DNA from: a virus
IMG/VR virus record: IMGVR_UViG_3300033047_000025
Coordinates: 2,648 to 66,647 of that record
DNA length: 64,000 nucleotides
Reading direction: 5' to 3' (one strand)
Shown: piece after piece, positions 1,811 to 62,568 of the stretch
Layout of the letters: every line of letters begins with the position of its first letter
How positions within the stretch are numbered: position 1 is the stretch's first letter
Position numbers and translations under genes: made by a program
Notes under the pieces: model-generated
Seen by the model: the letters and a program-made list of their open reading frames with translations, nothing else
Database searches by the model: none
What the model was told of the DNA's origin: nothing

Positions 1811-2407
1811 ATGAGTAAAAAGAGCCCTCTACGACCCGTGCCTCCCCCGGACGGCTACGTAAGGATGGTCCGTAGGCGAACTCCGAGCAGGGCTTACGCC
1901 TGCAGGGTGTGCTCACACCCGATTGCCAGGGACTCGGTCTACGAGTTTTGCAGGGCCAAGGAAGTATTTGAGACGACCAACATCTCCTACAACAAGTTCC
2001 TGACTCAGTATGTCGAAGGCGTCATCGGTTTTCCGATCAACTACCAGTCGTTCATGACGCATGTGAACAACCATGTTCGGCCGGCTCTGCGTCGAGAGAT
2101 GAGGGAAGTCGAGATCGAGCGCAACCGCGTTGATGACATGGAATGGAAGCCGCCAGACCTGAGCGACTTCCTGGTGTCGAGTAAGGATGGGGCACCCCTT
2201 CCCTACGAGCACTCGGGCCGTCCACCCGCAGTCATAGCCAACGACAAAGGGCTAGAGCCAACCGAAGACCTCGACCCAGTGACCCACCCAGAGTTTGACG
2301 ACGTTCCCAAGAAGGATTGGGACCCAGAAGTTGACCAATGCGCTTCTACCTATGCTAGGTTCTGGCGTGAGCAGGGCGATGACAAGATGCAGAAGGAAGA
2401 CGAATGA
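1811..2407 (+). CDS. hypothetical protein with CxxCxH...HxxxH putative zinc-binding/DNA-binding domain
   Basis: CRVCSHP...THVNNHV; acidic C-terminus; directly downstream of a promoter. Confidence 0.65.
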   Translation: MSKKSPLRPVPPPDGYVRMVRRRTPSRAYACRVCSHPIARDSVYEFCRAKEVFETTNISYNKFLTQYVEGVIGFPINYQSFMTHVNNHVRPALRREMREVEIERNRVDDMEWKPPDLSDFLVSSKDGAPLPYEHSGRPPAVIANDKGLEPTEDLDPVTHPEFDDVPKKDWDPEVDQCASTYARFWREQGDDKMQKEDE

Positions 2408-2584
2408 GCAAGCATCAAACTATCTGGCTGTAAGCCTGGAGACACGGTGTATGATCCGTTCATGGGAAGTGGGACGACACTAGTCGCTGCTTACACCCTT
2501 GGTATGCATGGTATTGGAACTGATACCGATGAAGGCTACGTCGGCCATGCTGTAGATCGCCTTAAAAAAGTGAGCACCCAATGA
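2404..2584 (+). pseudogene. C-terminal fragment of an N6A/N4C DNA methyltransferase
   Basis: Frame from 2408 reads ASIKLSGCKPGDTVYDPFMGSGTTLVAAYTLG...* (SAM-binding motif I); the catalytic DPPY half is absent and ATG 2404 is out of frame. Confidence 0.8.
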
Positions 2585-8092: not shown

Positions 8093-8390
8093 ATCCCTCT
8101 TCAATCATTTTTTCGACATGGGGTCTCGCGCCCTCGGTAACGAATCTTGCCGCGTCACTGCTAGACATTCCTATGATCTCATTACCACTAACGTAAGCGG
8201 TGGTTTGAATGACGCGAGACCATGCTATGTCAGCCTCATCATCGTCTAAGTATCCGTCGATTGTCGGTATCTCTGCTGAGACATGGACCCTGATCCGAGC
8301 TATAGACAGAACAGACTTAAGGTCGGGATCCAATCTACTTACCTTCCTTTGCACCATGCTCGGACGCCATGGTGTGGGCGATGTATGCAC
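8076..8390 (-). CDS. hypothetical protein
   Basis: 104 aa ORF in the operon; start uncertain. Confidence 0.55.
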   Translation of the reverse strand: MHTSPTPWRPSMVQRKVSRLDPDLKSVLSIARIRVHVSAEIPTIDGYLDDDEADIAWSRVIQTTAYVSGNEIIGMSSSDAARFVTEGARPHVEKMIEEGYYGSQ

Positions 8391-8637
8391 CTGACGACGC
8401 CAGATCGAACACAGCGTATACCTTGCCGGTGATGGTGATATCGGTGTGTGGGAATCCCTTTAGGGACTTATCACGAATCGCTCTAATAAACGACTGGGCA
8501 TCCTCGTGATTTTTGAACACGGACATTGGGTCACCGCCACCTTGTTCTCCGATGGTGGCTTGACTGTCGGCGCGTGCGCCCTTTGATGCTTCGGATAGCT
8601 CATGGTCGAGGACTTGTTGCCGTGTAGATTCTTGCAT
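8335..8637 (-). CDS. hypothetical protein
   Basis: ORF in the operon; true start may be MSVFKN at about 8523. Confidence 0.45.
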   Translation of the reverse strand: MQESTRQQVLDHELSEASKGARADSQATIGEQGGGDPMSVFKNHEDAQSFIRAIRDKSLKGFPHTDITITGKVYAVFDLASSGAYIAHTMASEHGAKEGK

Positions 8638-8646
8638 CTCAGCAGG

Positions 8647-9126
8647 CTAACCGACATCGACTGTATTTTCAAGCTTCGACTCATCAAGAATTGTAACCAG
8701 GATGTCAGCTTCATTGAGCGTCTCTTCGGCTCGCTTTACTGGCTCGATCCACCGGACCGGCAACTCAGGCCCACAGGCGACCACTGCCCTGATGCCGGCC
8801 TGTATGAGGTGCTTAGTGCAATTCCTGCAAGGGGCGGACCGAAAGCCATACAGGAAGAGCGTGCAGCCACGAGCATCCTTCCCGGCATCTAGGAGTGCGT
8901 TCATTTCTGCGTGGATGATCAACTCGTATTTTTCAGTTCTCAGGTTTAGCCGATCGTCATCGGCAATACCGCAGGGGAATCCATTGAAGCCGGTTCCTAC
9001 TACTCGTCGCCCACGGACCAGAACTGCACCAACCTTGGTAGAGGGGTCTTTGCTCTGCATGGATGCCAGCTTGGCTGACAGCATGAAATATCGAGCCCAT
9101 CGAATGTCGTCCATGGCTACGACCAA
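8647..9126 (-). CDS. dCMP deaminase
   Basis: SKDPSTKVGA, GFNGFP, HAEMNAL and PCRNC zinc motifs. Confidence 0.92.
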   Translation of the reverse strand: MVVAMDDIRWARYFMLSAKLASMQSKDPSTKVGAVLVRGRRVVGTGFNGFPCGIADDDRLNLRTEKYELIIHAEMNALLDAGKDARGCTLFLYGFRSAPCRNCTKHLIQAGIRAVVACGPELPVRWIEPVKRAEETLNEADILVTILDESKLENTVDVG

Positions 9127-49261: not shown

Positions 49262-49314
49262 CGTCGAGGGCTAGGAATCGAACCTAGCGACCTCCCTCTC
49301 TGAGCTACCTCGAC
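49262..49314 (-). ncRNA. tRNA-like element lacking the anticodon arm
   Basis: GTCGAGG-TAGCTCAGAGAGGG-AGGTC-GCTAGG-TTCGATT-CCTAGC-CCTCGAC-G: perfect 7-bp acceptor stem, TAGCTCAG D-arm start, canonical T loop. Confidence 0.75.
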
Positions 49315-55375: not shown

Positions 55376-55666
55376 CTACCAATCGTAGTTGGAAGCCTCA
55401 GTCTCTGCCATTGAAATCGCCTCCTTTCGGGTCTTGGCTTGCCACTCCTCACCACTCCACCAGATATCCGATGGCAGGACCTTGGTCAGTAGCTGGCATC
55501 GCCAGCGCTGACTAGACGGCACCCTGGTGATCGGACATATCAGCTTGTCGATATCGCAAGACCATACCGCGCCCCATGTTCCTCCAATCTTTCGCAGCGT
55601 GGCGTTCGGCCTTGTTACCTCGCACGACCTGAGGACGGAGATCTTTTGCTTGTCGCTGAGCCTCAC
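55376..55666 (-). CDS. hypothetical protein
   Basis: GTGA coupling. Confidence 0.55.
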   Translation of the reverse strand: MRLSDKQKISVLRSCEVTRPNATLRKIGGTWGAVWSCDIDKLICPITRVPSSQRWRCQLLTKVLPSDIWWSGEEWQAKTRKEAISMAETEASNYDW

Positions 55667-55920
55667 AGCTCGATCACCCTGCCCTCTGGTTGTAAGGGCT
55701 TTAGCTTTATCGACTCGATGCGGCCGATTTTATCAAGGCGTAAGCGATCAGGCATGTAGATACAGCTATCGACAAGGCTGAAACAGGCGATTTCCGACTG
55801 GTCGGGCGTAGAGCTAAGGTAAACTTCACCGTAATCTATTACGACCATTACGGATGTTGGCCCAGCGTCTGTTCCTTCAGAGACAATATCGCCCTTTTTG
55901 AACACTTGTTTTGATGTCAT
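55663..55920 (-). CDS. hypothetical protein (KOW/SH3-like FKKGDIV start)
   Basis: ATGA coupling. Confidence 0.6.
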   Translation of the reverse strand: MTSKQVFKKGDIVSEGTDAGPTSVMVVIDYGEVYLSSTPDQSEIACFSLVDSCIYMPDRLRLDKIGRIESIKLKPLQPEGRVIEL

Positions 55921-56285
55921 TTCTTACCCTCAATGTCTATCGCGTCGCACATGTCGCGGATGTCGGCAATGGCCCATTCTAAGTGGAGATTTCCGTAGTA
56001 AAGTTCCTCATCCGAATACCTTTCAGGGTACATCGAAACCAATGTGTCTTGGATGGCTCTTTGTGCAGCGGGCCATGCGGGATTTGGAGAAGGCCCGATA
56101 AAGTGGGGATCGATATTGTCTATGCAACGCAAAGACGCACTCAAGGCGGGTCAGCCAACCCCTGAAACCACAAGTCTAAATAGGAACTTTTTCCTATCGC
56201 TCTGAATAAGTAATTCTACGTTATTCAAGCTGACTCGGATGGAGTCCGTTACGCCTGCATCACCAAGAAGTCCATATTTACTCAT
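55917..56285 (-). CDS. putative selenoprotein C (122 aa, in-frame TGA at codon 45, context GVG-U-PA)
   Basis: ATG 56285 overlaps the upstream stop (ATGA); TGA at 56151-56153 then CCC GCC; frame continues into ORF 55917..56144. Confidence 0.75.
56118..56136 (-). promoter_or_regulatory. bacterial SECIS-like hairpin
   Basis: GUCU-U-UGC-GUU-GCA-U-AGAC; loop GU at +23/+24 after the UGA. Confidence 0.65.
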
Positions 56286-56554
56286 TCGAGAGCTCCGATC
56301 AGAATTGATCCATCCTCAAAGTGGTCTCGTGCCCATTCTAGCGTGGTCGATTCGACGCACTCCTCGATAGCCTCGTGACCGTATGCGCCGATAAACTCGT
56401 ACGAGTCCGATATGACCGCCGACTTAATGTCCACGTCTGTATAGGCGCGAGCGCCAGGACTAGCAATCGACTCGACCTTATCGAACCCGATCAGAACTCC
56501 GCTAATCTCAACCTTGTGGTCCGAATCATTGTTCTCGTAGGGGTCGATACTCAT
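56282..56554 (-). CDS. hypothetical acidic protein
   Basis: 90 aa ORF in the operon. Confidence 0.65.
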   Translation of the reverse strand: MSIDPYENNDSDHKVEISGVLIGFDKVESIASPGARAYTDVDIKSAVISDSYEFIGAYGHEAIEECVESTTLEWARDHFEDGSILIGALE

Positions 56555-56627
56555 CGTTTTTCAGCCATGTTGAAAACTACTGTAGAAAGGTATAGTGAAG
56601 TAAAGGTTGGCCTTCACGGCATGAACT

Positions 56628-57242
56628 CTACACAGACGCGCCCCAAGAAACAAGTTCTTTCTTGATGATTTCTCGACGGTAAGTCATGTTGCAGATGTCA
56701 AGCATCTTGCCGAGCCAAAGCACCGTCGCCGCCCTGACGGACTCGTAGTTGTCGTCATCATCCTTATCGACTCTCCCGTCATACAGTCCTGGGTGTGCGA
56801 TCTCAAAGCAATCGGGGCACCATCTCTTCCCATTATGGACCAGCTTCAAGTATCGAGTCGTATGGCCAACTTTGCATAGGCCGCTTTGGAAGCGTATATC
56901 TACTTTCGATCCTCGCTGGTATACCCATGCGGTCTTGAGGCCCAGTTTACTGGCGATCTGTCGCCCGGTCTTTCCTTGCTTCGCTAGCTTTCTGATCTCG
57001 GCGTCATACTTTGAGCCCCGAAATACAGGTGACAAACCGCGAGCCTTGTCGATGGCTCGCAACGCCTTGATCCGTCTAGTATGGTAGCCAGTGCTTGCTT
57101 GCGATACAAGTTTGTAGTACTTGTCGCCAAGGAGCACCTTAAGGCTAGGTGATGGCAGGGACGCGATAAAGTCGGCAAGACGCTTCTTCTCCTTGGCTAT
57201 TCTAGCATTGAAGTACCGTAGCTTTTGTTCGGCGCTAACCAT
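56628..57242 (-). CDS. hypothetical DNA-binding protein (HTH plus Cys motif)
   Basis: GKTGRQIASKLGLKTAWV; CKVGH...WCPDC. Confidence 0.65.
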   Translation of the reverse strand: MVSAEQKLRYFNARIAKEKKRLADFIASLPSPSLKVLLGDKYYKLVSQASTGYHTRRIKALRAIDKARGLSPVFRGSKYDAEIRKLAKQGKTGRQIASKLGLKTAWVYQRGSKVDIRFQSGLCKVGHTTRYLKLVHNGKRWCPDCFEIAHPGLYDGRVDKDDDDNYESVRAATVLWLGKMLDICNMTYRREIIKKELVSWGASV

Positions 57243-58482
57243 TGGCGATCTCAATCTCATTCCTGAAGACTCCGAATGGCTTAGATTTCTCACCGTCTAG
57301 GACTACCCTGTAATGGAAAAAGTCTCCTTGGTTTCCACGCACTATGACGGTGCCAATTCGGAGTGACCTGGATTCGACATTCACCCTCACCTTATCACCA
57401 ACCTTGAAATCTAACTTTTCAGGCGTATGCTCTAATTGGTCTGACTCTACGGAGAAAGGAATACTAAGCATCTGAGACCCTTGAACATGAATTATGTCGG
57501 TTCGCACAACTCTGAGGTATAGGCCAGTGCTCTTACTCTTGACGATGTCGCCAACTTTGAAGGGTGGCTTAGGGGAAGGTCTTATCTTCTTTAACATGGG
57601 GTCGCACTCATTTTTAGGTTGGTGGGGATTGGGTTGAGGGTTATACATTTTTGATCCTTGTAAGTAAGAGACCGGCGAGAGTGCCCCGTTTTCGATGGCC
57701 CTACGCAAATCGATTACCGCCTGATTAGTTTTCAGGTTGTGGCGGTTTCCAGTAGTCTGCTCTTCCCATGTGTTAAGAGTAATCTGACACAGAACTGCCT
57801 TTGATGCCTCAATTAACGCACTCGAAGCAAACGCGGCACGCCGCTTCTCGGCCGCGCGCTCAGCGCGCAACTCCTTATTCAATGCGCGATCCTTGGACAC
57901 GATGCGAATATGGCGTTGCAAGTCTTCGGTCACAGCCCGGTGACGGGTGTGCTGGATTTCCATCTCCTCATGTAGGTCTGCGACTTGAGCCCGAAGGTCG
58001 TGAACCTGATCACGTAGTCTCTCGCGCGCGTAGCCCTCCTCTATTTCATGGCCAATCGGCTCGAATCCATCCTTGGCCATGTAGTCGTCGGCCGTTTTGT
58101 CAGAGGGCCTGAGCGTGTCCTGAACGACCGTCCCGCGATTCTCTTCGGCTTTGATGGCTTCACGAATCTTCCGCCGAATCACGGTGTTCGGATGTTCCTG
58201 CATCATGCCGTGCTCGCGCTTCCACTGGACCATCTCAGCGTTGTTGTCGTCAGTAAATGACATCCACTCATAAGCCAACTTCGCGGCCTCAAGCAACGCG
58301 CTCGAGGCGGGCTCCTGCTCGGCCTCGGCAAGGTCCTGCTTGTCATCCAGCTCGGCCAACGCATCAATGGCAATCATGTTGCCATGACTGTTCCCGTGTC
58401 GGTTACCGTTGCCTAAGCACGCCAACCTCTCCAAGACCACCCTCACGAATGGTAGTTCCGGTCTGCCTTCTAAATCACTCAT
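57235..58482 (-). CDS. multi-domain mosaic hypothetical protein
   Basis: Start MSDLEG at 58482; repeated ASSALLEAAK/ASSALIEASK, coiled coil, two FKVGD (KOW-like) units. Confidence 0.7.
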   Translation of the reverse strand: MSDLEGRPELPFVRVVLERLACLGNGNRHGNSHGNMIAIDALAELDDKQDLAEAEQEPASSALLEAAKLAYEWMSFTDDNNAEMVQWKREHGMMQEHPNTVIRRKIREAIKAEENRGTVVQDTLRPSDKTADDYMAKDGFEPIGHEIEEGYARERLRDQVHDLRAQVADLHEEMEIQHTRHRAVTEDLQRHIRIVSKDRALNKELRAERAAEKRRAAFASSALIEASKAVLCQITLNTWEEQTTGNRHNLKTNQAVIDLRRAIENGALSPVSYLQGSKMYNPQPNPHQPKNECDPMLKKIRPSPKPPFKVGDIVKSKSTGLYLRVVRTDIIHVQGSQMLSIPFSVESDQLEHTPEKLDFKVGDKVRVNVESRSLRIGTVIVRGNQGDFFHYRVVLDGEKSKPFGVFRNEIEIANG

Positions 58483-58798
58483 AAGTAACCTCCACCTCAA
58501 TACCGTGTCTGTTAGCGAGGGCAACGAATCGGTCTGCCATGTCGGCAGGTTTCGTCGTGAATGCCCTGAAATAGTCAACTGTTGTTCCGTACCCGAGCAT
58601 TCCAGAGAATATCCTTACACATATCCAGAGTCCGAGAGGATGGCCGAGCACGTCGGCATAAGATCGGGCTGGTCAACAGGTAAGTTCGATGCCGTTGATT
58701 ACTACGGGGCTGCCCTTCCAGTGGCCACTATTAGTCCATTCGGCGACGATCGGCGTGGATAAAGCAGCTTTGAGCGCCCTTCGTTCGAGAGTCTGCAT
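58475..58798 (-). CDS. putative selenoprotein D (107 aa, in-frame TGA at codon 42, context LTC-U-PA)
   Basis: MQTLERRALK...ELTC*PARSYADVLG...EVTYE*; TGA at 58673-58675; fills an otherwise empty gap and overlaps the next ATG by 8 nt. Confidence 0.78.
58640..58659 (-). promoter_or_regulatory. bacterial SECIS-like hairpin
   Basis: AU-GCCGA-CGUGC-UCGGC-C-AU; loop GU at +22/+23. Confidence 0.7.
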
Positions 58799-58857
58799 CT
58801 TTTTGCTCGTTATACCGTTGCCTTTCGCATCGTTTCTTCGTCGATCATGACTTGTAA

Positions 58858-59307
58858 CTACTCGCGGTCTCGCTCAACTTCCTTGGCAGGAAGTAGCTCG
58901 GCAAGCTCTTTTGTCCAGCTTTCGTGACCAGCTTGATCATGGTAGAACCAAGCGGTTTTACGGTTCACCTTCATGGCTGCTATGAGTCCCGTAGCCCATT
59001 TACTTACTTCTGGTTGGCATGCGTCACCGGAGATGGGTTGACCCTGGTGAGCCTTGAAGACGAAGGTAACTCTATCTGGGTCATACGTATCTTCTAGCCA
59101 TTCTCCCAAGCCGGTCTCTCGTCGGTATGCCTCACAGGCTAGGCCGATCAAGCAAAGGCAGTCCTGGCTATCCACAACTCGCCTGAGCGTTCCATGGGTA
59201 ATACCAAAGTCCTTTGAGACCTCACACATGGCATCGAGGGCGTGCTTACTGATGTTGGTTTGTCTCATCGTGACACTCTTTTGTTGTTCTTGCTTTGATG
59301 TCTTCAT
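58858..59307 (-). CDS. hypothetical phage protein with CxCxxGxxC motif
   Basis: GTLRR...DCLCLIGLACEAY. Confidence 0.7.
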   Translation of the reverse strand: MKTSKQEQQKSVTMRQTNISKHALDAMCEVSKDFGITHGTLRRVVDSQDCLCLIGLACEAYRRETGLGEWLEDTYDPDRVTFVFKAHQGQPISGDACQPEVSKWATGLIAAMKVNRKTAWFYHDQAGHESWTKELAELLPAKEVERDRE

Positions 59308-59316
59308 GCCGAGACC

Positions 59317-59547
59317 TTACCCTGTGACCACTCGGATTGCAATGTTGGTCTCGGTGTCTCTTTGCCAACTGGATGTCATGTCGACATCAAGACCACATGA
59401 CCCAACACGGTTGCCATCAGTAGCGAAAATCGCATGGGCCAACTTACCGTGAGCAGATATCTTCTCGGATGCTGCTCGGAGGATTCTCGCAATCTCCATG
59501 GGTTCCGTGGCGGTCACTTGAAGGCGGAAGGACGGGCTACTCTGCAT
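59317..59547 (-). CDS. hypothetical protein
   Basis: EIARILR...DGNRVG motif. Confidence 0.65.
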   Translation of the reverse strand: MQSSPSFRLQVTATEPMEIARILRAASEKISAHGKLAHAIFATDGNRVGSCGLDVDMTSSWQRDTETNIAIRVVTG

Positions 59548-59812
59548 CGGTCTCCCCCATGAAGCAGGCTGCCGCGCACGCGGCGATGACGATGAAGGTC
59601 AGGTAGAGCGACAGCTCGAACAGTGTTGTGGTTAGGTCCATGGGAGCAGTATCGGGCAATGGGGCTTTTGGCTTGAGACAAAAAACGCCCCGGCTGGTGC
59701 TGATACACCGACCGGGCCCATGTCATCAGTCACCCTGGAAAGGCTGACTAATCGACGATCATCACAGTAGTGCTCCTTGCGTCAAAATCTGGAAACCAGA
59801 CTCTGAAATCCC

Positions 59813-60085
59813 TCACTCGATAAACCCCAACGCTGCAGCGGCAGACCCTAGTCCATTATCCCGGTCGTAGAGGGCCGGGGAGAACTCGTCACCACTAAGG
59901 TCGACTTTCATTACACGGCCATGAACGTAATCGAAGTAAGTGGTATCTTCGAGCAGAGTGTTGGCATGATCTTCCGTCATGTCCTCAGGAGTGAAGTGCA
60001 GCAGGCCGAGACCCTGCGGCTTAGCTGCGTTGTAGAGTGCAGCTAGGGTCTTGGCCTTGTTGCCCTTGATTTTGAGTTCGGTCAT
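59813..60085 (-). CDS. conserved-looking hypothetical protein
   Basis: LAALYNAAKPQGLG, YFDYVHGRVMKVDLS and LYDRDNG motifs. Confidence 0.8.
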   Translation of the reverse strand: MTELKIKGNKAKTLAALYNAAKPQGLGLLHFTPEDMTEDHANTLLEDTTYFDYVHGRVMKVDLSGDEFSPALYDRDNGLGSAAAALGFIE

Positions 60086-60265
60086 GTGTTTTCGCCCTTG
60101 CGTCTTCGAGAAGGTGTCTGGCTCTAGCTCTGTTGGACGATCTACTTTGAGGCGTCTCATTGCATTGTTGGAGGTAAAAGTGTCTTAGAGAGCCCCTTAC
60201 GGGGGCCAGTCGGGCAGTTTGTCGACCGATGGGGATGCCATCGGGGGTTCGGGTGCCGGCCGTCG

Positions 60266-60607
60266 TCAGCTTCGGATGGTAGGGAGGTGAGGGGTTGGAG
60301 TCAAGAGGATTTCTTGTTGCCGCTCAATCTGGTGCATGGCGGTCTCCATGCGGATGATGGCGGACATGATGGCGGAAACGTGTTCGGCAAGTCGGGCTAG
60401 GGTGGCGTTTTCGTCCACCTTCTCCACCTTGGCTCGCGCCACGCACCTGTAGCAGATGTCGCTAGTGTTGCCGGGTTGCGTCCTATCGATGGGGAACCTG
60501 TTGTGGTTTCGGGACAGCTTGCAGACTGCACAGGTGGACATGACCTTGGCTTTTATAGATGGTCGACCCTCGAAAATTGGCTTGTTCATGGGGAGTGACT
60601 TTGTCAC
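60266..60607 (-). CDS. hypothetical zinc-finger plus coiled-coil protein
   Basis: CAVC...CYRC. Confidence 0.6.
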   Translation of the reverse strand: MTKSLPMNKPIFEGRPSIKAKVMSTCAVCKLSRNHNRFPIDRTQPGNTSDICYRCVARAKVEKVDENATLARLAEHVSAIMSAIIRMETAMHQIERQQEILLTPTPHLPTIRS

Positions 60608-60689
60608 AGGGAAATCAAGGGAGATAACCTATCTGGGTGATTTTGACCCTTACCGACCAAGTCGAAGGAACTAAGTCGGCAAAAAGGGT

Positions 60690-61030
60690 CATGTAAGTCT
60701 ATATATGGTAAGTGGTTATGAGCGACCCTTGCAGGCGTGGCAAAAAGTGTTTGACGTAAGTGTATTGGTATAAGCATGTTAGATGCTTACTTCCCTCAAA
60801 TCCTTTAGAATTGGCTGTTGCACAGATCCTGGTGGTGTCGGGATAGGGGTATGGGGGTTGAAGTGGCCCTAAGGAAGGAACTATGGGGTCTAAATAAGTA
60901 ATGTATATATGTACTCTACTCTCTCTCTCTCTCTCTCTATTCTCTATATAGAGACTTAAGTCCTTTATTTACAAGAGTTTACATCATTCTCTATTTCTTT
61001 AGATGATAAATAAAGAAGATGAGATTGCCG
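60690..61030. other. AT-rich non-coding region, candidate replication origin
   Basis: Lies between divergent gene blocks; (CT)n tract, TATATA runs, repeated TAAGT...TTA motifs. Confidence 0.45.
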
Positions 61031-61207
61031 GGGATACTTATCGACCATTCGGGGCAAATCCTACTTTTCGGCAAACCACTCCTAAAGCACTGCTAGTAAT
61101 TGGATTACGTCAGAATCTGGCTTTCCCTTTTGGGTCGGGAACGCTTGGTCGATAAGCATAGACCGATTTCTTCTCGATTCGGCCAAGACAAAATGGGCAG
61201 TTCTTGC

Positions 61208-61235
61208 TTGACCCAGATCGCTGGGGAGGTATGGT
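61208..61235 (+). promoter_or_regulatory. sigma70-type promoter, probably giving a leaderless GTG start at 61243
   Basis: TTGACC-N16-TATGGT. Confidence 0.45.
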
Positions 61236-61242
61236 CTGGGGC

Positions 61243-61662
61243 GTGAACAAGAAGCAAGTATTGGAAGCCATAACGCCAACCATGATTCGGGAGGCCGCAA
61301 GAGTGGTTGTGTCCGTAGACAGAGAGGAGGCGAGGAAATGGGCAGAACTCATGACGACTGAGGGTAGCAATCCAGTCGGTTGACCTGCCTACATTCTGAG
61401 CCAGTTGGTTCTGAAGCCATCATACGTAGACATAGCCCAAGCGAACAGCATGATGCTTCGCATCATTAGCGATGCGATCAGTGCTAGGGTGGAGATGTCC
61501 ATAGGGAGCAACACAGCGAAGATGATCAAGGATGATCGTAACTGCAGCTCAGCCAACCCCTTCTCATACTACATGGCGTTCCATAATTATGCGGGTCAGA
61601 GTATCATCCACGATGAACTGATTCTATGGGCCGACCGAGTGGAGGCTAGCCATGTATCTTAA
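61243..61662 (+). CDS. putative selenoprotein A (about 139 aa, in-frame TGA at codon 47, context PVG-U-PA)
   Basis: VNKKQVLEA...NPVG*PAYILSQLVLKP... continuous with ORF 61405..61662; TGA at 61381-61383; alternative start ATG 61231. Confidence 0.75.
61394..61415 (+). promoter_or_regulatory. bacterial SECIS-like hairpin
   Basis: UUC-U-GAGCC-AGUU-GGUUC-U-GAA; loop GU at +21/+22. Confidence 0.65.
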
Positions 61663-61984
61663 GCCAACATCGAGGGATCTCCATGATTGCGCGGACTACC
61701 TGGACGATCTGACTGAAGAAGAAGCTTCGTCTGTTGCGCAATCTTTCTGGGTGGAGCGAGGAGATGTCAATTTCCCGGAGGATTCAGTCCTAGATGAGAT
61801 CGTTTGACCAGCTAGGTTTCTGGCGACCCGTGTGGTTTCCTGCAAGATGGATGGGTATGAGAGAGATTCAGACATGCTTAGATTCTTGTCTGAACGCATC
61901 AAACCTCGATATTTCGAGATGCTAGATGATTCGAAGAATGAGCTGGCTAAGTTGATCAGGGAGCTAGGGGACAAGTATGAGTAA
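61652..61984 (+). CDS. putative selenoprotein B (110 aa, in-frame TGA at codon 52, context EIV-U-PA)
   Basis: GGAGG SD at 61641, ATG 61652; TGA at 61805-61807; frame stays open to TAA 61984, overlapping the MazG-like start. Confidence 0.75.
61822..61840 (+). promoter_or_regulatory. bacterial SECIS-like hairpin (weaker)
   Basis: GG-C-GACC-CGUGU-GGUU-U-CC; loop GU at +23/+24. Confidence 0.5.
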
Positions 61985-62303
61985 GATCACGAACAATGAG
62001 TTTGCAATGTCCGTAGACCGGACCCGCAACGCACACTCTTCTCAGAAGGAATTGATCTGCAACTACTCAATGGGTCTGGCGGGGGAGACCGGGGAGGCTG
62101 TCGATATCATGAAGAAGTACTGCTTCCATGGATCCGGCCTGAATGCCGACCACTTCCGAGAGGAGATGGGCGACGTCCTGTTCTATCTTGTGGGGCTGCT
62201 TAACGCGCTCGGTATGACAGTCGAGGAGTGCATGGAGGACAACAAGCTGAAGCTTGAGAGGCGTTATCCAACTGGGTTTACAGAAGGAGGAGGTGTAAGG
62301 TGA
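61977..62303 (+). CDS. MazG-like nucleotide pyrophosphohydrolase
   Basis: GLAGETGEAVD..KK, EEMGDVLFY and N..KL.RRYP.GF motifs. Confidence 0.92.
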   Translation: MSKITNNEFAMSVDRTRNAHSSQKELICNYSMGLAGETGEAVDIMKKYCFHGSGLNADHFREEMGDVLFYLVGLLNALGMTVEECMEDNKLKLERRYPTGFTEGGGVR

Positions 62304-62459
62304 AAGACTGGACGAATACAGCGATGGCTGCGGCAGACCGAGACAGCGGGTAACCTTATGGAGAACACGAGAACGGAAGTTCTGGCCACTTTGCTCCGCA
62401 GCAAGCGTGGCAGGTATGCAAACTTGATTGGAGCCGATTCGATCGGCGCCAACCTGACC

Positions 62460-62568
62460 AAAGAAAGTTTTCGAGAAAGGTCGCAAGATCGTTGATCGGT
62501 CAGTCGATGACCCTACTCTTCATGGGTCGGGCGTAGCGACATTGTTACTGGTCGACGAGACACAAGAC
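62460..62568 (+). repeat. 109-bp direct repeat, copy 1
   Basis: Identical to 63314-63422; contains TTGATC-N16-TACTCT. Confidence 0.95.

What the first reader, a model, noticed from the sequence alone, without database searches (positions are those of the whole stretch)
55917..61984. Four phage genes with in-frame UGA + Pro-Ala + SECIS-like hairpin: a candidate phage selenoprotein system (U-P-A motif)
Seen in sequence: four gaps in the ORF track close into well-coupled genes of 107-139 aa if a single TGA at codon 42-52 is read through. They are 55917-56285(-) GVG*PALSAS, 58475-58798(-) LTC*PARSYA, 61243-61662(+) PVG*PAYILS and 61652-61984(+) EIV*PARFLA. The two codons after TGA are always Pro-Ala but vary synonymously (CCC GCC, CCA GCC, CCT GCC, CCA GCT), which indicates protein-level selection beyond the stop. 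Each TGA is followed by a short hairpin whose loop has GU at +21 to +24. Established: bacterial Sec insertion (SelA/SelB/SelC/SelD) uses a SECIS hairpin just 3' of UGA, and in E. coli fdhF the loop GU lies at about +20/+21. Inference: these are selenoproteins, dissimilar apart from the motif and not resembling selenoprotein families I recognise. No sel genes are visible, so they would use host machinery and their expression could be gated by selenium. TGA is an ordinary stop elsewhere in this genome, so the recoding is site-specific.
Basis: partly seen in the sequence, partly recalled or inferred. Interest (0 to 1): 0.95.

Follow-up and report, generated by a model that had tools for sequence, protein, structure and literature searches.

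The report
Phage genes with selenocysteine-type UGA signals
Five genes of an uncultured marine phage each run through one internal UGA "stop" that is followed, at a fixed distance, by the small RNA hairpin bacteria use to insert selenocysteine, so this phage probably makes selenium-containing proteins with its host's machinery, which I found described in no paper.

Summary
Four small ORFan genes each carry one in-frame TGA followed by CCN GCY (Pro-Ala). Both halves of each gene are coding in one frame, and the read-through ends are coupled to the neighbouring genes.

The hairpins are also real. Each TGA is followed by a hairpin with G-U in its loop, the G lying 21-24 nt after the TGA. At most 1.1% of control positions have an equally stable hairpin. 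Of 22 ordinary gene-terminal TGA stops, 21 have none. The one exception (TGA 2405) proved to be a fifth read-through gene, a methylase-like protein without Pro-Ala.

Two sites in an unrelated 73-kb phage show the same design. The E. coli fdhF SECIS scores like them.

Best reading (about 0.6): selenocysteine inserted by a host SelB system.

Against it:
- The only homologue spanning a site has Ser, and methylases have Leu, not Cys.
- The published SECIS model passes only 2 of 4 sites.
- The host is unknown.
- The phage carries no sel genes.

So Pro-Ala is not required for recoding.

This scan noted similar cases before on other DNA (e1-6056595, e1-6167212, e1-6124043, e1-3426393). My paper searches found no report of a phage selenoprotein.

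The parts
55917..56285 (-). c1: 122-codon ORFan gene read through one TGA (codon 45, 56151-56153), context GVG-U-PALSAS
   Evidence: both halves best in frame 0; GGAG before the ATG; ATGA overlaps with both neighbours. No homologue found.
56118..56136 (-). c1 hairpin, +18 to +36 from U of UGA; loop GUU with G at +26; one 1x1 mismatch in the stem; -5.3 kcal/mol
   Evidence: An equal or better hairpin occurs at 0.7% of 9,434 control positions.
58475..58798 (-). c2: 107-codon gene read through TGA (codon 42, 58673-58675), context LTC-U-PARSYA. The only candidate with homologues.
   Evidence: The 108-aa homologue P0007 aligns over residues 4-107 across the TGA, with Ser at that position. P0008 matches the C-terminal half.
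58643..58657 (-). c2 hairpin, +19 to +33: GCCGA-CGUGC-UCGGC, G at +25; -6.0 kcal/mol
   Evidence: 0.5% of control positions. It also passes my version of the published bSECIS constraints.
61243..61662 (+). c3: 139-codon gene (GTG 61243; an in-frame ATG at 61231 is an alternative start) read through TGA (codon 47, 61381-61383), context PVG-U-PAYILS
   Evidence: A promoter-like TTGACC-16-TATGGT lies at 61208-61235. Weak paralogy to c4. No homologue found.
61394..61415 (+). c3 hairpin, +14 to +35; upper stem GAGCC/GGUUC, loop AGUU with G at +24; -7.1 kcal/mol
   Evidence: 0.3% of control positions. It passes the bSECIS constraints.
61652..61984 (+). c4: 110-codon gene read through TGA (codon 52, 61805-61807), context EIV-U-PARFLA. 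Its end overlaps the MazG start.
   Evidence: GGAGG 7 nt before the ATG. Low-confidence all-alpha model in which a helix starts at residue 51. No homologue in the phage collection.
61822..61840 (+). c4 hairpin, +18 to +36; GACC-CGUGU-GGUU plus two outer pairs, G at +26; -4.0 kcal/mol
   Evidence: 1.1% of control positions. It fails my version of the bSECIS energy and stem constraints.
1811..2584 (+). Context KEDE-U-ASIKL, so no Pro-Ala. The extension ends at the start of the next gene (2581).
   Evidence: The extension matches DNA methyltransferase motif I (phrog_67 E 1.2e-17; PF01555 positions 177-219 of 221). Methylase homology continues upstream of the TGA, and homologues have Leu at that position.
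2423..2440 (+). Hairpin after TGA 2405, +19 to +36; loop GUA with G at +26; -4.5 kcal/mol
   Evidence: It is the only one of 22 gene-terminal TGAs that has such a hairpin.
61977..62303 (+). MazG-like pyrophosphatase gene, translationally coupled to the read-through end of c4
   Evidence: Its own TGA stop has no hairpin.

Best explanation
Five genes of this marine phage each contain one UGA that is decoded as selenocysteine by the host's SelA/SelB/SelC/SelD system. They are four small ORFans and one methylase-derived gene. The signal is a small hairpin in the coding sequence, 14-19 nt after the start of the UGA. Its apical loop presents G-U 21-24 nt after the codon, as in bacterial SECIS elements bound by SelB.

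Shown: the in-frame UGAs, coding sequence on both sides, and the positioned hairpin that separates read-through UGAs from ordinary UGA stops.

Inferred: that SelB binds the hairpin, that Sec rather than another residue is inserted, and that the host has the machinery.

The Pro (CCN) after UGA in 4 of 5 sites here, and in both sites of the second phage, is a secondary feature. It may be a weak termination context (UGA-CC), a helix-start motif, or both.
For: (1) Hairpin statistics. All four sites have a GU-loop hairpin with G at +24 to +27. Only 4.8% of 9,434 control codon positions have any, and no more than 1.1% have one as stable.

(2) Genome-wide scan. Of all 2,370 TGA trinucleotides on both strands, 33 have such a hairpin at -4 kcal/mol or better. 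Of 205 TGACC sites, exactly 4 do, and they are the four candidate sites.

(3) Discrimination. 5 of 5 read-through candidates have the hairpin, against 0 of the other 21 gene-terminal TGA stops. My arithmetic for Fisher's exact test gives 1 in 65,780.

(4) Position. Other 4-nt windows from +12 to +43 give almost nothing.

(5) Replication. A distantly related complete phage, G002 (terminase 32% identical), has two in-frame TGA-CCN sites with hairpins GGUUCC-CGUGU-GGAACC (G +26, -7.2) and CCUCG-CGUG-CGAGG (G +27, -5.7). 0 of 70 ordinary TGA-ending genes there have one. The stems differ between sites, while the loops recur: CGUG in 4 of the 6 Pro-type sites of the two phages.

(6) Positive control. 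For E. coli K-12 fdhF codon 140, the same routine finds GGUUGCAGGUCUGCACC, with G at +23 and -4.2 kcal/mol.

(7) Literature. Passages of PMC4605307 describe a loop G about 20 nt downstream of the UGA. The Fig. 2 legend of PMC13188914 gives a loop of 3-9 nt, G in the first two loop positions followed mostly by G or U, and a spacing of 16-37 nt. All sites meet the loop and spacing terms.

(8) The gene of the Ser-bearing homologue has no hairpin after the aligned codon.

(9) c2 is one protein. P0007 covers both halves.
Against: - The only homologue spanning a site has Ser (AGT) opposite the UGA, and Val opposite the neighbouring Cys. Methylases have Leu opposite the fifth UGA. Sec/Cys pairing, the usual criterion, is therefore not met.
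- The published bSECIS model as I coded it passes only c2 and c3, while 77 of 250 control positions pass.
- The hairpins alone are -4.0 to -7.2 kcal/mol, weaker than the model's -7.5.
- Whole-window folding energy at +4 to +48 is ordinary.
- Rfam gave no relevant match at E <= 1.
- My hairpin definition (mismatch allowed, loop 3-6 nt) was fixed after I had seen the sites.
- The host is unknown, so the presence of selABCD is untested.
- There is no SelA or tRNA-Sec in either phage record.
- The recurring Pro after UGA is not explained by SECIS biology.
- Five selenoproteins in one phage, all in new families, is without precedent.
Confidence: 0.6

Rival explanations
1. Leaky read-through by an ordinary near-cognate tRNA (Trp, Cys or Arg) at a weak UGA-CC context gives a minor full-length product. 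The hairpin would slow the ribosome or hinder RF2 rather than bind SelB.
For: C follows the UGA in 4 of 5 sites here and in both G002 sites. Homologues show Ser or Leu rather than Cys, so the inserted residue may not matter. That UGA is leaky, with Trp inserted, is stated in passages of PMC7918605.
Against: It does not explain a G-U in the loop at a fixed 21-24 nt in all 7 sites. The other 201 of 205 TGACC sites have no hairpin. The fifth site has G after the UGA. I know of no hairpin-stimulated read-through in bacteria other than SECIS (recalled, not searched).
Confidence: 0.15
2. A UGA-suppressor tRNA reads these codons. It would be encoded in the missing ~29% of the phage genome or supplied by the host. 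This would be partial stop-codon recoding of the kind proposed for other phages.
For: The record is 71% complete by CheckV, so a tRNA gene could be missing. The window has an odd tRNA-like element at 49262-49314.
Against: - TGA ends 21-22 genes, including structural ones.
- G002 is complete, shows the same design, and has no tRNA by ARAGORN and no tRNA-Sec match.
- A suppressor needs no hairpin.
- The tRNA-like element has no anticodon arm.
Confidence: 0.07
3. The TGAs are true stops. Each locus would be a short peptide gene followed by a dead or separately started remnant, so these are pseudogenes or split genes.
For: The fifth gene looks like a decayed methylase: HPTQKP has become DKMQKE and there is no DPPY motif. 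Weak TTG or GTG codons lie 2-9 codons after the TGAs.
Against: - Frame 0 is best in 8 of 8 halves.
- All the downstream parts are in frame, and their ends are coupled to the next genes.
- Pro-Ala follows four times.
- Every one of them has a hairpin, while ordinary stops have none.
- P0007 spans both halves of c2.
- The same design occurs in a second phage.
Confidence: 0.08

Closest known systems
Bacterial selenoprotein genes with an in-ORF SECIS read by SelB (prototype E. coli fdhF; consensus model in the Fig. 2 legend of PMC13188914)
   Same: An in-frame UGA is followed by a small hairpin inside the coding sequence. A G followed by U lies in the first two loop positions about 20 nt after the codon. 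The fdhF hairpin scores -4.2 kcal/mol with G at +23 by the same routine that gives -4.0 to -7.2 with G at +24 to +27 here.
   Different: The genes are carried by a phage with no sel genes. The proteins are ORFans or methylase-derived, not known selenoprotein families. No Cys homologue was found (Ser and Leu instead). Pro usually follows the UGA. The hairpins fall short of the model's -7.5 kcal/mol, and c1 and c4 fail my implementation.
Selenoproteins of eukaryotic viruses (the 'viral selenoprotein' literature; listings only)
   Same: A virus depends on host Sec machinery for its own genes.
   Different: Those are animal viruses with eukaryotic-type signals and are homologues of host enzymes (recalled). 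Here the signal is of the bacterial type and the protein families are new.
Stop-codon recoding in phages through suppressor tRNAs (e.g. code 15 in crAss-like phages; PMC9523058, abstract seen)
   Same: Phage genes contain in-frame stop codons that must be read as sense.
   Different: There the stop is reassigned genome-wide and tRNAs are usually encoded by the phage. Here only 5 sites are affected, TGA remains a stop in 21-22 genes, no tRNA is found, and each site has its own hairpin.
Qbeta coat/A1 UGA read-through (recalled)
   Same: A phage gene is extended past a UGA.
   Different: That is a C-terminal extension of a complete protein by low-level near-cognate decoding. I know of no positioned GU-loop hairpin there.

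Membership tests
Bacterial SECIS-dependent selenoprotein gene | An in-frame UGA inside a gene that is coding on both sides | tested here: met
   For c2, a homologue spans both halves. For the fifth gene, the extension matches PF01555.
Bacterial SECIS-dependent selenoprotein gene | [quoted passage not shown] 2 legend) | tested here: met
   The loops are GUU, CGUGC, AGUU, CGUGU and GUA. Spacing is 19-22 nt at the four Pro-Ala sites.
Bacterial SECIS-dependent selenoprotein gene | Upper stem of 4-16 bp and MFE <= -7.5 kcal/mol (same legend) | tested here: inconclusive
   In my implementation, 2 of 4 sites pass (c2 at -16.3 and c3 at -9.1 with lower stems) and c1 and c4 fail. 77 of 250 control positions pass, so the test has little power. 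The authentic fdhF minimal hairpin is itself only -4.2 kcal/mol.
Bacterial SECIS-dependent selenoprotein gene | Homologues carry Cys (or UGA) at the Sec position | tested here: not met
   P0007 has Ser. Methylase homologues have Leu at the fifth site. No homologue was found for c1 and c3 in the 5.8-billion-protein search. c4 was searched only against the phage collection.
Bacterial SECIS-dependent selenoprotein gene | selA, selB, selC and selD available in the translating cell | not testable with these tools
   The host was not identified. Neither phage record has SelA or tRNA-Sec. The MAG that carries the Ser homologue does have SelA, but nothing shows it is the host.
Bacterial SECIS-dependent selenoprotein gene | Selenium actually incorporated | not testable with these tools
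   This needs 75Se labelling or mass spectrometry.
Genome-wide TGA reassignment (codes 4 and 25) | TGA is not used as a stop and is frequent inside genes | tested here: not met
   21-22 genes end in TGA, about 9 of them without a start overlap. Only 4 TGAs lie inside 19,406 codons of my gene set.

The most novel reading that the evidence does not exclude
Marine and salt-lake phages use the host's SelB/SECIS recoding as a gate rather than for catalysis. A UGA plus a private mini-SECIS is placed at a tolerant spot, typically just before a helix that starts with Pro and a small residue, in several accessory genes. Here these are four ORFans, one methylase-derived gene and, through translational coupling, MazG. 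These proteins would then be made only when the host has charged Sec-tRNA and SelB. The Ser and Leu in homologues would follow naturally, because the residue itself would not matter. The phage's anticodon-less tRNA-like element with a 13-bp acceptor/T helix might interact with the same machinery.
Probability: 0.2. Interest if true: 0.9.

Novelty: new variant of a known kind. Interest (0 to 1): 0.8.

Why it matters
- Selenoprotein genes are catalogued for bacteria, archaea, eukaryotes and a few animal viruses. Two recent prokaryote reviews that I searched contain no occurrence of 'phage' (and none of 'virus' or 'viral' respectively). The phrases 'phage selenoprotein', 'phage-encoded selenoprotein', 'bacteriophage selenocysteine' and 'selenoproteins in phage' occur in no paper of the library.
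- If confirmed, phages would be a new reservoir of selenoprotein families, and gene callers would be splitting such genes systematically.
- Five sites in one genome would tie the expression of phage accessory genes to host selenium status.
- The hairpin test used here separates recoded UGAs from ordinary UGA stops cleanly. It gave 5 of 5 against 0 of 21 in this phage, and 2 candidate sites against 0 of 70 in a second phage. It could be run over viromes.

Tried and rejected
Homology searches that gave nothing
- IMG/VR pattern scans with c1, c3, the 413-aa and 681-aa neighbours, alignment A2 and MazG found nothing. The two hits to c1 (L001, L002) matched only the seed peptide.
- A metagenome scan with A2 found nothing.
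- tblastn of c2, c3 and c4 against 50,697 phage records found nothing, and megablast of the region found nothing.
- The 5.8-billion-protein search with c1 and c3 found nothing. With A2 it returned only P0007, P0008 and the window's own fragment.
- Pfam, PHROGs and NCBIfam gave no family for the four proteins, apart from two weak PHROG hits (E 0.002 and 0.16).
- P0007 was not found in the 40 relatives of its MAG that were searched.
- G2a has no relative other than the same phage. L013 and L014 are identical over 6,357 bases.

Structure and hairpin tests that gave little
- Single-sequence AlphaFold models were poor: c1 pLDDT 43 and c4 pLDDT 57. No fold search was made.
- My first hairpin tests were insensitive or post hoc: whole-window MFE, and a >=4-bp contiguous stem with G at +18 to +27 (4 of 4 sites against 854 of 9,434). 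They were replaced by the test.
- MAFFT did not put the hairpins in register. I therefore built no covariance model and counted no covariation.

Ideas rejected
- A DNA-level motif or a -35-like TTGACC: no -10 box follows, and all sites are in frame.
- Hopping or frameshifting: the downstream frame is frame 0.
- TadA-type editing: the motif is wrong (recalled).
- Genome-wide recoding: see the membership test.
- My interim note that stand-alone TGA stops are almost absent was wrong, and I corrected it in note 3. About 9 TGA stops do not overlap a start.
- TAG 8647-8649 followed by CCT GCT has an ATG three codons later and reads as two ordinary genes.
- The c4 to G2a similarity (z 4.1) is out of register with the UGA.

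Sequencing runs
- No RNA holder was listed.
- X2 and X3 do not cover the TGA sites.

Host
- The host was not identified.

Full report
WHAT THE WINDOW IS. The window is bases 2648-66647 of a 66,647-bp IMG/VR virus record that CheckV rates 71% complete. The record came from seawater. It is a tailed phage. Terminase, portal and capsid genes lie at 10.9-17.2 kb, and a replication arm includes primase-polymerase, helicase, a Cas4-type exonuclease, Sak4, SSB and RusA. It also carries thymidylate synthase, dNMP kinase, a 430-aa N6/N4 DNA methylase, MazG and a pentapeptide-repeat gene. Its closest terminase in the phage collection is only 39% identical.

THE OBSERVATION. All four in-frame TGAs exist and are followed by CCN GCY. 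A 3-periodic Markov model trained on 33 long genes puts frame 0 of the stated strand first among six frames in 8 of 8 halves. The read-through genes fit the operon layout:
- c1 has ATGA overlaps at both ends.
- The last codons of c2 carry the GGAGG and the ATG of the next gene.
- c3, c4 and MazG overlap by 11 and 8 nt.

Pro-Ala occurs 59 times in 19,406 residues, so four of four is not chance. A Logan contig of run X1 at depth 43.7 is identical over 55500-62489. That rules out assembler error, although X1 may be the source sample.

THE HAIRPINS. My first tests said nothing. Folding energy over +4 to +48 is ordinary. The published bacterial SECIS constraints (Fig. 2 legend of PMC13188914, read), as I coded them, pass only c2 and c3, while 77 of 250 control positions pass.

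For each site I asked for the most stable hairpin with a loop of 3-6 nt, allowing one mismatch or bulge. The four sites give -5.3, -6.0, -7.1 and -4.0 kcal/mol. Only 4.8% of 9,434 in-gene codon positions have any such hairpin, and 0.3-1.1% have one as stable.

The controls agree with this:
- Of all 2,370 TGA trinucleotides on both strands, 33 have a hairpin at -4 or better.
- Of 205 TGACC sites, exactly four do, and they are the four candidates.
- Moving the 4-nt window anywhere else between +12 and +43 removes the signal.
- Of 22 gene-terminal TGA stops, 21 have no hairpin.

A caveat applies. I fixed the loop and mismatch rules after seeing the sites.

A FIFTH SITE. The one 'ordinary' TGA stop with a hairpin is at 2405-2407. 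There the frame runs on for 58 codons and ends exactly at the start of the next gene. That extension is real coding sequence, the SAM-binding motif I of N6/N4 DNA methylases (phrog_67 E 1.2e-17; PF01555 positions 177-219 of 221). Methylase similarity continues upstream of the TGA, where DKMQKE stands in place of HPTQKP. Homologues have Leu where this gene has UGA. The context is U-A-S, so Pro-Ala is not part of the recoding signal. In total, 5 of 5 read-through candidates have the hairpin and 0 of the other 21 TGA stops do. My arithmetic for Fisher's exact test gives 1 in 65,780.

REPLICATION IN ANOTHER PHAGE. A degenerate pattern built from it found IMG/VR contig G002. G002 is 73,154 bp, has terminal repeats and is rated complete. 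It is only distantly related to this phage: terminase 32%, portal 26% and capsid 28% identical.

Its two sites read GKC-U-PSRLAG and KFP-U-PGLALG. They carry the hairpins GGUUCC-CGUGU-GGAACC (G +26, -7.2) and CCUCG-CGUG-CGAGG (G +27, -5.7). Equal or better hairpins occur at 0.4% and 0.7% of 36,542 control positions. None of 70 ordinary TGA-ending genes of G002 has such a hairpin. A third TGA-CCC site there (L005:6808) has none, and I do not count it.

Across the two phages the stems are unrelated in sequence, while the loop CGUG recurs in 4 of the 6 Pro-type sites.

COMPARISON WITH A REAL SECIS. For E. coli K-12 fdhF codon 140, the same routine returns the known minimal hairpin GGUUGCAGGUCUGCACC, with G at +23 and -4.2 kcal/mol. 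Passages of PMC4605307 state that the SECIS hairpin has a 6-8 bp stem and a conserved loop G about 20 nt downstream of the UGA. The phage hairpins are of the same kind and are shifted 1-4 nt.

HOMOLOGUES.
- c1 and c3 have no relative in the 5.8-billion-protein search.
- c4 was searched only against phage records.
- c2 has two relatives in the 1.84-billion-representative HMMER search. P0007 is a 108-aa protein of a 7-Mb MAG that aligns over residues 4-107. P0008 is a 65-aa match to the C-terminal half, and its DNA I could not reach.

P0007 shows that c2 is one protein. It has L-S-V-S-P-D-V where c2 has L-T-C-U-P-A-R, so Ser (AGT) stands opposite the UGA and the Pro is conserved. Its gene has no hairpin after that codon. 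That fits a hairpin tied to UGA, but it is not the Cys expected of a selenoprotein family. The MAG has SelA, though nothing links it to this phage as host.

c3 and c4 align weakly from the Pro-Ala onward (z 2.7) and are probably tandem paralogues. The other pairs show no similarity.

WHAT THE PRO MEANS. CCN follows the UGA in 6 of the 7 hairpin sites in the two phages. The next residue is Ala, Ser or Gly. In P0007 the aligned S-P-D looks like a helix start. In the low-confidence c4 model a helix starts at residue 51, next to U52. The Pro may therefore reflect a helix N-terminus, a poor termination context (C at +4 and +5), or both. This is inference.

MECHANISM AND RIVALS. Sec insertion by a host SelB system explains the site specificity, the hairpin, its loop and its position. 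I give it about 0.6. The rivals are:
- Near-cognate leakiness does not explain the loop G-U at a fixed distance.
- A suppressor tRNA needs no hairpin, is absent from the complete G002, and conflicts with 21-22 TGA stops.
- True stops conflict with the coding signal, the coupling, P0007 and the hairpins.

A regulatory variant stays open: Sec used as a gate on expression, so that the residue itself does not matter. It would explain the Ser and Leu in homologues.

NOVELTY. Searches found no paper on phage selenoproteins. The four phage-specific phrases have zero occurrences. Neither of the two prokaryote selenoproteome reviews contains 'phage'; PMC9312934 has no 'virus' and PMC13188914 no 'viral'. 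The library lacks most subscription journals, and I saw no supplements. This scan has noted similar cases on other DNA: e1-6056595, e1-6167212, e1-6167219, e1-6124043 and e1-3426393. Of these I tested only e1-6167212.

Noticed in passing
window 49262-49314 (-): A tRNA-like element with a 7-bp acceptor stem, a 3-bp D-like hairpin, an AGGUC-type variable stretch and a 6-bp T stem with a GTTCGATTC loop. It has no anticodon arm and no encoded CCA. It folds at -20.8 kcal/mol. Neither ARAGORN nor Rfam calls it. The 13-bp acceptor/T helix equals that of tRNA-Sec, which is intriguing next to five candidate Sec codons.
   Followed up: partly
whole window: TAG is the commonest stop in my greedy gene map (TAG 42, TGA 25, TAA 21). 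About 12 of the TGA stops are 4-nt start-stop overlaps. TAG dominance is unusual for a 53% GC genome.
   Followed up: partly
window 62301-62495 (+): The MazG gene ends in TGA and the frame stays open for 63 more codons. That frame scores best of six, though near zero. There is no GU-loop hairpin, so it is probably not recoded.
   Followed up: partly
window 8335-9126 (-): A 159-codon ORF ends in TAG CCT GCT (stop-Pro-Ala) and continues in frame into the next ORF. An ATG lies three codons after the TAG, so this reads as two ordinary genes and a chance Pro-Ala.
   Followed up: partly
window 60608-61242: A 635-bp divergent intergenic region lies between the minus-strand and plus-strand operons. 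It contains a (CT)n run near 60910-60955, which read laying flagged as a skipped repeat. A promoter-like TTGACC-16-TATGGT lies just before c3.
   Followed up: no
window 62460: Logan contigs of run X1 break or branch at 62460-62489, with a loose end. This fits the 109-bp duplication reported in another note on this window (e1-6173370).
   Followed up: no
L005:6808 (G002): A third in-frame TGA-CCC (GFDA*PDHSNS; 79 codons upstream and 54 downstream are open) has no GU-loop hairpin. Its status is unclear.
   Followed up: partly
window 58475-58482 and 61977-61984: c2 and c4 both end in ...Y-E-stop, over an identical TATGAGT junction that carries the ATG of the next gene. The c2 homologues P0007 and P0008 also end in YE.
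   Followed up: no
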